Of a stretch of 31,426 bases of DNA, positions 15,001 to 21,000 are shown one piece after another (the stretch's first letter is position 1; each line of letters opens with the position of its first letter). The stretch lies in assembly GCA_030637655.1 (NCBI GenBank), contig DAOWGI010000065.1, positions 1-31,426 of the forward strand. The letters are read 5' to 3'. A program made the position numbers. Origin of the DNA: a candidate division FCPU426 bacterium (GTDB lineage: Bacteria > Oederibacteriota > JAAXVQ01 > JAUVAV01).

Positions 15001-18000
15001 GAAATCAGTCTCAGTGGCGGCTGTTCCTGGTATGGCGAAGACTTTATTAGCGCACATTAAAGAGCAAAAGCTTGAGGTGGAGGCTGGATTACCGGCCATA
15101 CTTAAGGAGATGGATAAGCCGGGGGTTAAGACCGGAGATATTGTTACGCTGGACAAATCCCAAGTTTATTCTCTGCTGAAAAGCTTTGGGCCAGGGACTG
15201 AAAAGGCAAATTTGCAGGCAGTGGATGCAGTTAATATGGGAAGAGATTATTTTGAGAGACAGGTTTGTGTGGTAACTACTTTGCAAGAAATACGTGAATA
15301 CACATTTGTCAACGAGCAAGGGGTGGAAACGACCTTTTACCTTCCAGCAGTTGGAACTGCCATAGGCGGGGATGAGAAAGAAACTTTCGCAGACATAGTT
15401 GCCAAGGTTAAAAGCGGAAAGCAGCCGGTGCAGCGCTTTGTTGGCCGTTTTTTAGGCAAGTACGCGGATCCTGAAGCAAAATTCTGTGCCTGGCAGCAGT
15501 GGTTATTATGGTTGGGCGGAAGCAATACTCATAAGGCAATTGCGCGTAAAAATCCATCTGCCTATTATAATATACTTATAATGAAGCTCAAAGCCGTGAT
15601 GCCCAAAGGCGCTGTCGCGCCGCTGATAAAGGAGTTGGAAAGCCGGGACAGTGATCTTCACCGCATGCTCATGGCTGTGCTTGAGGCCAGGGATGAAAAA
15701 ACGATTTTTTTAGCCCAGGAGCAGCTGGCACGCAATCTGGCGGCTTTTGTGACCAATTATTATAAGCTCTTTAAAGCGGAATACACAGAAAAGAACATTA
15801 ATCTTTTAGCGGACAATATGCTGAATATTCAGGCCTTCAGCAGTTTGGCCGAACTATTGGATCTAATAATGGTGGCAGAGAAAGAATACGCGGAGTCTAA
15901 GACCTATGGTTCTATAAGTAGGATTCTTATTAAAATGCTTGCAAAGCGCGGTATAAAACCGGGCAAGCTGAGTGTGCCTTTTATTGTGCTGGGACTATAT
16001 GGGACGCGCGGCGCTTTTCGTGATATGCTTAAAGAGCATAACTATAAAGTGAGAAAAGACCTGGAGTTCATCCGCAGGGCTGTCAGGCTCTTTGCCGGAT
16101 CAGCCTAGCCCGGACAAGACGGAACCAAAAAAGTATATTCACCGCATACCCAAAAAACGGGCACAAGGAGACACAAAGTACGCAGAGAAAAAAATGTAAC
16201 ATGTCAGTAAACTGCGCAGTTAAACAAAGATTGTCATTCCCGAGGGTTTAATCGGGAATCTGGTTTTTTAAACCGTATCCCCGATACAAGCATTCGGGGA
16301 TGACAAACAAAAAAAACCATGACTGACATGTTACAAAAAAATTTTAGTTTTCCTCCGCGTCCTCTGCGTCTCAGCGGCGAATAATTTTCTTGCCAAAAAA
16401 GCAAGAATTTAAGACGTAAGCGCCTAAGGCCGGTCAAATAAACGGTTGGCTCAAATCACATTTTCCTATTTGGCATTCGAGTATTTGGCTTGACGCTTTT
16501 ATAATCCAGCCCTATAATTTCGCCGCCTGGAAATACATTTGTTGGAGTATTGCATGAGTCCGGAAATTGTATTAGAGCCACAAGGTCTTTCACCTCAGCT
16601 CAAACTCTTAATTGACAAACTGGAACTGCCCTCAGAAATAAAAACTCCCTTATTGCAGGCGCAACCCGGTTTGGTGACCGTATCCTGTCGTCCGGCGCAG
16701 ATGATAATACGTTTGGATGCCAAAATATGTTTGGCTAAGGTTGCCTTGGATCCGTTGCGCACGCTGCTGGTAGAAAAGATGGCAGGGACCGGAGCGCCGA
16801 AAATGATCTGGGATGTTCACTATCCGGCCGGGGTAATCAGCCCCTTACAGTATATGAAAGAACACTGGCCGGATTTGGTGGACGTTTTTTCCCAGCAGGT
16901 GAACATGGCCGGAGCCTATCTTTCTTTGGTCAGGTTTGGTAATGGCGGAGAAAACCGAGTGCGCATCGCTTTGCCGAATGAAATGTCCCTGACGGCCTTA
17001 AAGCGGCAATCCGGGGATAAAATATTAAGCCGGATGCTGAGCGAACGCTTAAAACAGGAAATCACAGTGCGATTTGAGATCGGCGAATTTACTGATGAGG
17101 TCAAAGAACGGGAAGCCTTATATCAGAAACGTATTCGCGAAGAATTGGAAAAAATTCAGAACGAAAATGAGGAAGCCAAGCTCTCTGTTGAGGGAAGTGT
17201 CAAAGCTCCCAAACGATCACCTTGGCGTGTCCTGTTAGGCAGGAAAATCTCCAGTGTGCCGGTACCAATTGCCGGAATCAAGGAAGAAGAGCCAAATGTT
17301 GTTTTTGAAGGCGAATTAGTGGCTTTTGACAGCAGAATTTTGCGTACCGGTCGTCAGCTGGTTCTTGCGGATATATATGATAAGACTGGAAGTATCAATG
17401 CGCGTTTGTTTGTGGATGCCGGTAAGCAGTTATCACCGGAAGTGAAGAAAGGCGCCTATGTCCGAATGCGAGGTTCAGTGCAATACGATAAATACTCGCA
17501 AGATCTGTGTTTGTTTATTAAGGATATCTCTTTGGGTATAAAACCCGTACGCAAAGATCTGGCTGAGGAAAAGCGCATTGAATTGCACGCGCATTCACAA
17601 ATGAGCGCCATGGATGCCATGGCCGGAGCATCCCAGTTGGTCAAGCAAGCAGCTGCCTTTGGTCATCCAGCTGTGGCGATTACAGATCACGGTGTGGTAC
17701 AGGGATTTCCGGAAGCCATGTCGGCTGCTAAAGAACACAACATTAAAGTTATTTATGGTATGGAAGGCTATCTTATTGAAGATGCCTGGGCAAAAACCGC
17801 GGCCAACCAGAAACCACCCCGTCCTTATCATGTTAGTATTTTAATAGCGCAACCACAGGGAGTCAGAAATTTATATCGGATGGTATCAGAAGCGCATTTG
17901 AAGTATTTTTATCGGCATCCACGTATCCCCCGCTCTGTCCTGGGAAAATATCGGGATGGTCTATTGTTGGGCACAGCTTGTGAACAAGGCGAGCTTTTTC

Positions 18001-21000
18001 AAACTATGTTGAGAGGTGCCGGTGAAGAAGAACTGGAGACCATTGCTAAACAGTATGATTATATTGAGATTATGCCGCGCGATAATAATCGGTTTTTACT
18101 TCGGGAAGGCCGGGTTAAAGATGAGGAAGCGCTGCTCGATTTGAATCGTCGTTTGTTAGCCTTGGGAAAACGATTAAATATTCCAGTAGTTGCCACGGGG
18201 GATATTCATTTCCTTGAACCTGATGACGAGGTTTTTCGATCAATTTTGCAATCAGGAATGGGTTATGCTGACGCGGCCAGGCAGGCGACTCTGTTTTTTA
18301 AAACAACCCGGGAAATGTTGGACGAATTTGCCTATCTGGGTGAAGCAGACGCAGCAGAAGTTGTTATTGCCGCGCCATTGCGGATTGCAGATTCTGTGGA
18401 ATGTGTGAAACCATTAAAATTTGATTTTTATCCACCCAAGCTGCCGGATGCGGAAAAAGAACTGCAAACTATAACATTTAAACGGGCTAAAGAAGTATAC
18501 GGAGATCCTTTGCCGGAAATTGTACACAAACGTCTGGAACGGGAAACAACAGCGATCAATGATAATCATTTTGCTTCATTGTTTTTAATAGCTCGTCGTT
18601 TGGTACAAAAGTCGATTAGTGACGGTTATTTAGTAGGGTCACGCGGATCTGTAGGGTCGTCGCTAACCGCAACCATGCTGGGAATAACAGAAGTGAATCC
18701 CTTGCCCGGCCATTACCTTTGCCCTCAGTGCCGCTATTTTGAACTGGCTGAAAAAAGTCGCATTGGCGCTGATTTGGATGAAAAAGATTGTCCTCGCTGT
18801 CAAACCACTATGGATAAAATTGGTTTTGATATTCCGTTTGAAGTATTCATGGGATTTAAAGGCAATAAATTGCCGGATATTGATTTGAATTTTTCCGGGG
18901 AATATCAATCCATTGCCCATAAATATTTGGAGGAAATATTTGATCCGGATCATATTTTCCGCGCCGGAACCATATCTACGGTTGCGGATCGTATTGCGTA
19001 TGGTTTTGTAAAGAAATATTTGGAAGAGAACAAATTGGTGATTCGTGAGGCGGAGGTAAATCGTCTGACCCGCGGTTGCGCGGGAGTGAAGAAAACCACC
19101 GGACAACATCCAGGTGGCATCATGATTGTGCCGGAAGATATGGAAATTTATGATTTTACTCCAGTGCAGCGGCCGGCCGATGACCGCAATTCGGAAATTA
19201 CCACTACGCATCTGGATTACCATGCCATACATGATTCCTTGTTGAAGCTTGATATTCTCGGGCATGATGATCCGACTTCCTTACGGCGGTTAGGGGATAT
19301 AACCGGTCTGGATGTTCGTTCCATACCCCTGGATGATCCGGAAACCTTAAAAATATTTTCCGGATTGGAATCACTGAATGTTACTGAGAAACAAATAAAC
19401 ACAAATATAGGAACACTTGGCATTCCTGAGTTCGGTACTGAATTTGTTCGTCAGATGCTCGACGTTACGCGGCCAACTGTCTTTTCTGAATTGGTACGCA
19501 TTTCCGGTTTGTCCCACGGAACAGACGTGTGGCTTAATAATGCCGCTGATTTAATCAAAGCCAAGACAGCAACGTTATCTACTGTGATTTCAGCCCGTGA
19601 TGATATTATGAATTATTTAATTGCCAAAGATGTTGAGCCTGGTTTGTCTTTCCAAATCATGGAGTCAGTTAGAAAAGGGCAAGGACTAACCGCAGAACAA
19701 GAAGGCGTTATGAAAGAGCATAGTGTGCCTACGTGGTATATTGATTCCTGTAAAAAGATAAAATACATGTTTCCTAAAGCGCATGCGGTTGCTTATTGCA
19801 TCATGGCTTTTCGTATTGCCTATTTCAAAGTGCATTTTTCAGCGGCCTTTTATACAAATTATTTTACTTTAAACGCGGAATTTTATGATGCTGAACTCGT
19901 AGTTCACGGCGGTCCTGAAAAAGTAAAAGAACGCATCAAGGAATTGAAAGATCAGCAGACTATGACTGCCAAAGATAAAAATAATCTGACAATATTGGAA
20001 GTTGTGCGCGAAGCCTTTGCGCGGGGAATTAAATTTAAAGCTGTATCTTTAAGTAAATCTGATCCGATGTTATTTCAACTGACAGATGAGCAGACTTTGC
20101 TGCCACCGTTGATTTCTTTAGCAGGCCTGGGATTAACTTGTGCTGTGCGCATCGCCGAAGAGCGACAGCTGCGGCCCTTCCGATCAGTCGAAGAATTATC
20201 CAAACGTACGGGCGCTAATAAAAATGTGGTTGAGATTATGACGCAGCATAAGTGCTTGGATATTTTACCCAAGACGGACCAGACCTCGTTGTTTGGATGA
20301 TATTGTAGGGGTACAGCGTCCGGCTGGTGGGCGCGGTTACCGCGCCCCTACGGAATTATGGGACAATATGAATTTCAGGTTGCAAACGTACGTGATGTTT
20401 TTCCCAGACTTTCGCCTCGATTACCTGCATAAGATCCAACAGGTCTTGGGTGCAGCCTTTCCCGGTATTCACCAGAAAATTGGCATGCTGCTCAGAAACC
20501 CGGATACCACCGATTTGATGTCCTTTGAGGCCGCAAGTTTCAATCAAAGTGCCTGAGGGAGTGCCGACATTGTAATCATTTTTGTATACGCAACCGGCGG
20601 AAGGAAATAAAAACTGTCCTTTGTTTTTGCGGTCTTTCAGTATTTCCTCTGTCTTTTGTTGTATGGCATATAAAGTTCCGGGAACAAGTTTTAAACGGAT
20701 GTTCATAATAATGTGTTGGTTGTGTTGGAAAATCGAATTTTTGTAAGCAAACCGGCATTCAGGCTGTGAGAAAGTTCGCTCTTCACCACTGGGGGTCAGG
20801 GTTTGCACTTCCTCAACAATATCGGAAAACGAGTGCCCGTAGCATTTGGCATTCATAAAGACTCCGCCGCCAATAGTGCCCGGTAATCCGGAGGCCCATT
20901 CAAAATCCGCAAGTGCGCAGGCCAATGTCTGTTCGGTTAAAGCAGCCACCGGAAGTCCTGCCCCCACCCGGACGTCTCCCTTGTTGGAACTGGTGAAATA

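What a model noticed while it worked through the whole genome (the two positions that open the first line are those of the whole stretch)
16554..20300. Proofreader-less PolC in a diderm phylum; this order has no DnaQ at all
This outer-membrane bacterium encodes a PolC-type replicase (1248 aa) beside DnaE, and the PolC lacks the inserted DnaQ exonuclease. The same short PolC is the rule in the phylum, and no DnaQ-family gene is found in the whole order, leaving the two intact PHP sites as the only candidate proofreaders.
Evidence so far: TIGR01405 over cut-off in 69 of 99 phylum genomes; in the rows listed the match jumps from model position about 175 to about 370-380 on adjoining DNA, with open frames mostly 1205-1300 aa. 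PF00929 found in 0 of 15 order genomes at E<=1e-10, but in 60 of 99 phylum genomes. PolC and DnaE (g01139) both keep HHDHEHCDH ligands. LpxA-D, LptD, BamA present. Passages of PMC3919608 confine PolC to Firmicutes, Fusobacteria, Tenericutes, Thermotogae and note exo loss in 16% of PolC+DnaE1 cases; passages of PMC12926913 add no such lineage.
(Added by a program. Inside this text positions count along the whole contig: contig position 1 is position 1 of the stretch shown here. "Call 12" and the like, gene names such as g00115 and contig names such as C1 are that model's own, and its searches are not shown. The text may have been shortened before it was handed on; [...] marks where a part breaks off. 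The agent that wrote the report below was given it as the finding of a first reader that could run no searches.)

Follow-up and report, generated by a model that had tools for sequence, protein, structure and literature searches.

The report
Exonuclease-less PolC in a Gram-negative phylum
A little-known outer-membrane bacterial phylum carries the 'Gram-positive' replicative polymerase PolC without its usual proofreading domain, and in one large branch the only intact error-correcting site left in the main replication polymerases is PolC's PHP metal site, which offers a direct test of whether that site proofreads.

Summary
Confirmed: 16554-20300 encodes a complete 1248-aa PolC lacking the ~200-aa DnaQ insert, with all nine PHP ligands. 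Exo-less PolC is known from Clostridia/Negativicutes; the lineage is new. Nearest named homologues are FCPU426/Firestonebacteria. PolC occurs in 78 of 99 phylum genomes, all exo-less, PHP intact in 77 (1 truncated). RpoB and NusA+IF2 place the host with Proteobacteria/Bacteroidota, yet polC sits in the Bacillota order upstream of nusA in 45 of 77 genomes. PolC trees show no close Bacillota donor; origin is deep and unresolved. 'No DnaQ at all' holds for epsilon-type genes only: DEDD-superfamily nucleases exist in 15 of 15 order genomes. New here: in families f10-f12 DnaE's PHP is broken in 31 of 31 sequences, PolC's is intact in 33 of 33, and the common PF00929 gene is oligoribonuclease. PolC's PHP is thus the likely proofreader there (inferred; Pol I's intact exonuclease is a rival). 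No biochemistry.

The parts
16554..20300 (+). polC, complete exo-less PolC-type Pol III alpha, 1248 aa
16863..17180 (+). N-terminal NII domain (PF11490, 26.2 bits, just under cut-off 26.3)
17298..17498 (+). OB domain, N-terminal to PHP as in PolC
17565..18443 (+). PHP domain with all nine metal ligands HHDHEHCDH; folds as one domain (pLDDT 93.2)
17763..17831 (+). E404-H426 loop, 22 residues, where exo-bearing PolCs carry 203-220 residues
18459..19688 (+). polymerase palm/thumb/fingers with D775, D777, D900
20025..20273 (+). (HhH)2 motif
20280..20294 (+). C-terminal QTSLF, clamp-binding-type motif (consensus recalled)
20356..21288 (-). murB, inverted between polC and nusA (also in G023, G019, G031, G032)
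22021..23541 (+). nusA with C-terminal HhH extension (host type, not Bacillota type)
23538..29294 (+). infB, DUF503, rbfA, nrnA, truB, ribF: the conserved superoperon that follows polC in Bacillota

Best explanation
This is a working replicative PolC that replicates together with a DnaE1 and edits its errors with its own three-metal PHP site instead of a DnaQ domain. Shown: architecture, intact catalytic, PHP and clamp motifs, phylum-wide retention, no epsilon-type gene. Inferred: the PHP is a 3'-5' exonuclease. In the window's order both PHP sites are intact and either could edit. In families f10-f12 DnaE's PHP has decayed, so PolC's PHP is the only intact editing site in the two Pol III alpha subunits; DnaE there probably became a non-proofreading partner, as DnaE3 did in Bacilli, but with PHP in the place of DnaQ. 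The gene was in the phylum before its main branches split and was lost in f3-f7 and f13 (or f3 never had it); the DnaQ insert was most likely lost once, early.
For: PolC PHP intact in 77 of 78 genomes, the other truncated; E-to-H spacer 17-34 aa in all 78. DnaE PHP broken in 31 of 31 f10-f12 sequences by many different substitutions, intact in 57 of 59 other rows (2 truncated), including 15 of 16 rows from PolC-less families. f10-f12 DnaEs form one clade, 99. TIGR00573: f10 0 of 2, f11 0 of 1, f12 2 of 31, both under cut-off. f12 PF00929 loci: 19 of 20 fetched were printed, all oligoribonuclease-like; NF003765 over cut-off for the two scanned. G042 (f11, 97% complete) also has a degenerate Pol I exonuclease and no PF13482 hit. 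PHP/polymerase identity ratio in f12: PolC 0.96, DnaE 0.87. Among 50%-cluster representatives PHP is intact in 25 of 28 exo-less and 68 of 107 exo-bearing PolCs (12 of 147 gapped rows set aside). Nine-ligand PHPs are exonucleases in Mtb, Taq and T. thermophilus enzymes (PMC5636811 passages); a PHP cysteine change in C. thermocellum PolC raises mutation rate about 30-fold (10.1101/2021.07.30.454558).
Against: No PolC PHP exonuclease activity was found in the papers seen; G. kaustophilus PolC (eight of nine ligands) has none. PolC PHP is also intact in most exo-bearing clostridial PolCs (166 of 262 non-phylum exo-bearing rows), so intactness alone may reflect a structural or pyrophosphatase role. 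Pol I keeps an intact DEDDy site in 9 of 9 f12 and 2 of 2 f10 sequences read, and f12 has a helicase-fused DEDD domain. The f10-f12 pattern is one or two evolutionary events, not 31. In the window's own order the DnaE PHP is relatively better conserved (ratio 1.08) than PolC's (0.86). The genomes are incomplete assemblies (G000 91.55%), and only G000 was searched exhaustively.
Confidence: 0.68

Rival explanations
1. Function rival: PolC's PHP is structural or a pyrophosphatase; editing is done by DnaE1's PHP (window's order) and in trans by Pol I's 3'-5' exonuclease or an unrecognised nuclease (f10-f12), backed by MutS.
For: Intact Pol I DEDDy in 11 of 11 f10/f12 sequences read; MutS1 in G000; standalone D-E-D-Y-D protein in 14 of 15 order genomes; PHP pyrophosphatase claim for E. 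coli DnaE (PMC4822814, listing only).
Against: G042 lacks the Pol I site too; PF13482 in only 5 of 31 f12 genomes; the standalone protein has no conserved clamp motif and lies away from replication genes; E. coli Pol I does not make up for loss of epsilon (recalled).
Confidence: 0.25
2. Origin A: polC is a vertical relic, present in the common ancestor of Bacillota and this lineage, between proS and rimP-nusA, and lost in most other phyla.
For: polC within 15 kb upstream of nusA in f1 10 of 11, f2 4 of 4, f11 1 of 1, f12 30 of 30; proS upstream in five fetched regions, as in Bacillota. The flanking NusA+IF2 group with Proteobacteria/Bacteroidota/Chlamydiota, 96/97, so the block was not imported whole. 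PolC groups match RpoB groups; PolC lies outside the Bacillota core (96). Phylum monophyly of PolC not rejected, p 0.54 and 0.20.
Against: Linkage absent in f8-f10 (0 of 9) and f14-f23 (0 of 22). Best PolC trees split the phylum in two or more groups; backbone unresolved; long branches. Needs many losses. ProS tree uninformative. No Elusimicrobia or other sister phyla in the trees.
Confidence: 0.5
3. Origin B: one or two ancient transfers from an early Bacillota-like donor, inserted beside nusA by recombination through conserved flanks, possibly already exo-less.
For: Best named matches outside the phylum are Bacillota, 49-58% identity; exo-less PolC arose repeatedly in Bacillota; sisterhood with Halanaerobiales, Thermosyntropha, Hydrogenispora, Thermotogota or Fusobacterium is not rejected (p 0.057-0.51).
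Against: Grouping with the Desulfosporosinus/Dehalobacterium/Desulfitispora/Desulforamulus clade (p 0.006, 0.005) or with the unnamed exo-less P0085 (p 0.008, 0.002) is rejected; no close donor among 150 representatives.
Confidence: 0.4
4. Artefact or relic: misbinned Firmicutes contig, assembly deletion, or a decaying accessory polymerase.
For: Gene order is Firmicutes-like; short exo-less second copies exist in Thermotogota (10 of 41 genomes).
Against: Same form in 78 genomes of 17 families, full N-terminus and motifs kept; the adjacent NusA is of the host type.
Confidence: 0.02

Closest known systems
Exo-less PolC of Clostridia and Negativicutes (PolC + DnaE1; PMC3919608 section 14)
   Same: No Exo insert, paired with DnaE1, intact PHP, same gene order (Desulfitispora locus).
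   Different: Host is outside Bacillota by RpoB and NusA+IF2; not their sister in the AU test for the two clades rejected; the three Bacillota-type partner DnaEs read keep an intact PHP, unlike f10-f12.
PolC + DnaE3 of Bacilli (B. subtilis)
   Same: In f10-f12: partner DnaE has a dead PHP and editing rests on PolC.
   Different: Bacilli edit with PolC's DnaQ insert and their PolC PHP has Asn for Asp; f10-f12 have no insert and nine ligands; their DnaE descends from the phylum's DnaE1.
PHP-proofreading DnaE1 of Mycobacterium tuberculosis and Thermus (PMC5636811)
   Same: Same nine ligands; loop at the Exo insertion site of similar length (17-34 aa spacer); PHP model matches 5lew/7pu7 at TM 0.75-0.76.
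   Different: Single DnaE-type replicase there; activity shown there, not here.
Fusobacteriota and Thermotogota PolC
   Same: Diderm hosts with PolC.
   Different: Their main PolC keeps the Exo insert; their RpoB lacks the ~100-aa insert that this phylum shares with Proteobacteria/Bacteroidota.

Membership tests
PolC-type Pol III alpha | Curated family models over cut-off | tested here: met
   TIGR01405 1304.6/1043; NF001688 1446.6/873
PolC-type Pol III alpha | NTD-OB-PHP-Pol3-(HhH)2 order with OB before PHP | tested here: met
PolC-type Pol III alpha | Catalytic DDD and C-terminal clamp motif | tested here: met
Canonical PolC (B. subtilis type) | DnaQ exonuclease inserted in PHP | tested here: not met
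Exo-less clostridial PolC | Descent from the exo-less Bacillota clades | tested here: inconclusive
   two clades rejected, Thermosyntropha not rejected, P0046 rejected only under the mixture model
PHP proofreading exonuclease | HHDHEH[C/H]DH ligands | tested here: met
PHP proofreading exonuclease | Measured 3'-5' exonuclease that depends on the ligands | not testable with these tools
   needs purified protein
PolC + DnaE1 system (window's genome) | Partner DnaE full length with intact PHP and clamp-type motif | tested here: met
PolC + DnaE3 system (for f10-f12) | Partner DnaE with disrupted PHP | tested here: met
   31 of 31
PolC + DnaE3 system (for f10-f12) | Partner belongs to the DnaE3 clade and PolC carries DnaQ | tested here: not met
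   PolC has no insert; DnaE nests among the phylum's DnaE1 (no DnaE3 row in that tree)
Bacillota (host) | Core genes group with Bacillota | tested here: not met
   RpoB 97/90 and NusA+IF2 96/97 with Proteobacteria/Bacteroidota; RpoB insert 98-117 aa versus 22
Diderm envelope | LpxC and BamA | tested here: met
   other LPS genes not tested

The most novel reading that the evidence does not exclude
PolC is not a Firmicutes speciality but was present, next to nusA, in the ancestor of Bacillota and the Proteobacteria/Bacteroidota side of the tree; this phylum kept it, perhaps in the primitive state before the DnaQ insert, and families f10-f12 run a fourth kind of bacterial replicase: PolC editing by PHP alone plus a non-proofreading DnaE that arose independently of DnaE3.
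Probability: 0.3. Interest if true: 0.9.

Novelty: new variant of a known kind. Interest (0 to 1): 0.76.

Why it matters
Whether PolC's PHP domain proofreads is open: the site is conserved, one mutation in it makes a mutator, but I found no demonstration of activity. A natural PolC with no DnaQ insert whose partner DnaE has lost its PHP site is the cleanest enzyme to test. Phylum-wide PolC in Bacillota gene order in a host on the Proteobacteria/Bacteroidota side also bears on the age of the PolC/DnaE split and on the ancestral bacterial replisome.

Tried and rejected
Single-sequence fold of the PHP failed (pLDDT 37.9); redone with a 56-row alignment. The mixture-model PolC tree of 79 rows did not finish; the careful 57-row search did not finish either, so the quick tree is cited. 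First RpoB tree held two wrong-frame rows and was redone. First PolC motif count was offset by 12 residues and redone. First constrained trees had not converged and were rerun. No 16S gene in G000; no Rfam match in the window. ProS tree unresolved. Names for deep unnamed PolCs were mostly unavailable. NusA best hits to Bacillota were rejected as evidence of transfer after the tree. The idea that the standalone RNase_H_2 protein has a clamp motif was rejected. The idea that f12 has a free epsilon was rejected: oligoribonuclease. ESM Atlas added nothing. Earlier scan notes were not available. No complex prediction or read mapping was run.
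Full report
Observation. The ORF at 16554-20300 (+) gives 1248 aa and passes both PolC models (TIGR01405 1304.6 bits, NF001688 1446.6). Pfam shows NII, OB, PHP, polymerase, finger and HhH, and no RNase_T. [quoted passage not shown] All nine PHP ligands, the three catalytic aspartates and a C-terminal QTSLF are present. The PHP folds as one domain (pLDDT 93.2, 56-row alignment) and matches PolC structures at TM 0.85-0.91. G000 has one other C-family gene, a full DnaE1 with intact PHP.

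Host. Homologues at 56-68% identity over the first 430 residues are labelled candidate division FCPU426 and Ca. Firestonebacteria; PMC7031533 (passages) names Goldbacteria, Firestonebacteria and Elusimicrobia as neighbours. Which family codes match which name is not known. LpxC and Omp85 are present. In an RpoB tree of 42 rows the 29 phylum rows group with Shewanella, Shinella and Parabacteroides (97/90) apart from Bacillota, Thermotogota and an actinomycete; all 29 share a 98-117-aa insert region against 122-139 in those three and 22 in the other ten. Outgroups were few and no sister phylum was included.

Distribution. A PolC-type match is found in 78 of 99 phylum genomes (69 over cut-off, 9 divergent or fragmented); none in f3-f7 (18 genomes), f13 (one contig, 96% complete) and two others. 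All 78 lack the insert (spacer 17-34 aa; 203-220 in exo-bearing PolCs) and 77 show all nine ligands, the other being cut.

DnaQ. PF00929 is absent from 15 of 15 order genomes at E<=0.01; TIGR00573 gives one 33-residue hit at E 0.22. Two home-built profiles (124 PolC inserts; 10 standalone proteins) run without filters over 60,018 six-frame ORFs of G000 gave best E 1 and 0.5. Its Pol I exonuclease is degenerate. Phylum-wide, TIGR00573 passes cut-off in 10 of 99 genomes, all in PolC-less f4/f5. The f11/f12 PF00929 genes read are oligoribonuclease; f8 and f14-f23 carry a PRK06195-like type under cut-off; two f12 genomes have a sporadic DnaQ-like gene.

The key contrast. Of 90 DnaE rows from 89 genomes (10 genomes not fetched), the PHP motif is broken in all 31 from f10 (2), f11 (1) and f12 (28), in many different ways, with DDD intact; it is intact in 57 of the other 59 (2 truncated), including 15 of 16 from PolC-less families. 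PolC's PHP is intact in all 33 f10-f12 genomes with PolC. The f10-f12 DnaEs form one clade (99; FastTree, 11 of 31 rows used), so this is one or two events. PF13482 is found in 5 of 31 f12, 0 of 1 f11, 2 of 2 f10 genomes. Against my reading: Pol I keeps DEDDy in 9 of 9 f12 and 2 of 2 f10 sequences read, and f12 has a helicase-fused DEDD domain; G042 (f11) lacks the Pol I site. Outside the phylum, PHP is intact in 25 of 28 exo-less and 68 of 107 exo-bearing representatives (Fisher p 0.011, rows not independent; the three exceptions are 854-904-aa proteins).

Mechanism. Shown: motifs and distribution. From known families: nine-ligand PHPs edit in Mtb and Thermus enzymes, the DnaQ of PolC is inserted in the loop beside that site, and G. 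kaustophilus PolC with one ligand changed has no such activity (PMC5636811 passages); a PHP cysteine change in C. thermocellum PolC, which has an Exo domain, raises mutation about 30-fold (10.1101/2021.07.30.454558, abstract, part 1 of 4 and passages); in B. subtilis PolC's DnaQ complements DnaE3 in trans (PMC12926913 passage). Inferred: PolC is the main replicase and edits by PHP; in f10-f12 DnaE lost its own editing because PolC covers it. In the window's order both sites may act; relative conservation there favours DnaE's (1.08 versus 0.86; ratios depend on depth).

Origin. polC lies within 15 kb upstream of nusA on the same strand in 45 of 77 genomes (f1 10/11, f2 4/4, f11 1/1, f12 30/30; f8-f10 0/9, f14-f23 0/22), with proS upstream in five fetched regions and in 40 of 80 loci. 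The flanking NusA+IF2 are of the host type: phylum 90/99, with Proteobacteria/Bacteroidota/Chlamydiota 96/97; NusA tails 82-162 aa against 4-39 in Bacillota. PolC trees (432 rows FastTree; 57 rows IQ-TREE quick) put the phylum's PolCs on long branches outside the Bacillota core, in groups that match RpoB groups but not as one clade. AU tests on 39 rows (short constrained searches, 5000 replicates, fewer than advised): monophyly not rejected (p 0.54 LG, 0.20 mixture); union with the Desulfosporosinus/Dehalobacterium/Desulfitispora/Desulforamulus clade or P0085 rejected (p<0.01); five other unions not rejected, P0046 only under the mixture model. Some 'Bacillota' rows are unnamed proteins assigned by placement. 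Vertical retention (0.5) and ancient transfer (0.4) remain open. Loss of the insert is more economical than primitive absence, since Fusobacterium, Thermotogota and most Bacillota have it and it was lost repeatedly; no root was tested.

Literature. PMC3919608 (abstract, sections 13, 14, 19, part 1 of 23): PolC confined to Firmicutes, Fusobacteria, Tenericutes, Thermotogae; 6% lack Exo, only Clostridia/Negativicutes plus one Thermotogae copy. PMC12926913 (abstract, sections 14, 23, passages, supplement parts 1 and 63 and a term search of a cut copy): three replicase systems; no FCPU426, Goldbacteria or Firestonebacteria row in the text held; its figures and full C-family table were not seen and may hold exo-less PolC with inactive DnaE1 PHP. 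PMC12592400: passages. Eight full-text searches listed no paper on PolC in this lineage or on PHP-only editing by PolC; 'PolC' with 'Gracilicutes' gave 0 papers; two searches listed 30 of 152 and 20 of 56. Subscription papers are not covered. NCBI already labels these proteins PolC-type, so the annotation exists without comment.

Verdict. Real; a new variant of a known kind. [quoted passage not shown] Interest 0.76.

Noticed in passing
window 1943-16108 (+): 4721-aa ORF with AAA_5 and leucine-rich repeats, several hydrophobic segments; absent upstream of polC in relatives viewed.
   Followed up: no
window 37-930 (+): dCTP-deaminase-like ORF at the contig edge, NF041025 301 bits, under cut-off 400; possible anti-phage gene.
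   Followed up: no
window 20300-22021: No rimP between polC and nusA; murB lies there inverted, also in G023 and G019, while f11/f12 keep rimP. rimP elsewhere in G000 not searched.
   Followed up: partly
window ~16230-16310 and ~21465-21790: By eye, palindromic or inverted-repeat elements in the intergenic gaps before polC and before nusA.
   Followed up: no
L031-L040 (f4, f5): PolC-less families carry a standalone DEDDh exonuclease whose best NCBIfam matches include PolC's exo region; could be a relic of the insert or a common DinG/Cho-type domain.
   Followed up: partly
P0143, P0131, P0140, P0146, P0151, P0167, P0178, P0218: Unnamed deep PolC lineages outside the Bacillota core, with and without Exo; may mark further PolC-bearing phyla.
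   Followed up: partly
L070: Record titled Ignavibacteriales holds an exo-less PolC that groups with clostridial PolCs (98); probably mislabelled.
   Followed up: no
phylum of G102: Short exo-less second PolC copies (965-1025 aa frames) in 10 of 41 Thermotogota-side genomes.
   Followed up: no
order genomes: Second, weaker DnaE matches (DnaE2-like by length and score) in 11 of 15 order genomes, not in G000; the 2014 survey calls DnaE2 very rare in PolC genomes.
   Followed up: no
G000:C1:13522-14031 (-): Conserved ATPase, RNase_H_2 nuclease, phosphatase-like gene trio in 11 order genomes' loci, in whole or part.
   Followed up: partly
L377 (G085): Second full DnaE on a very long branch outside the phylum's DnaEs; contamination or transfer.
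   Followed up: no
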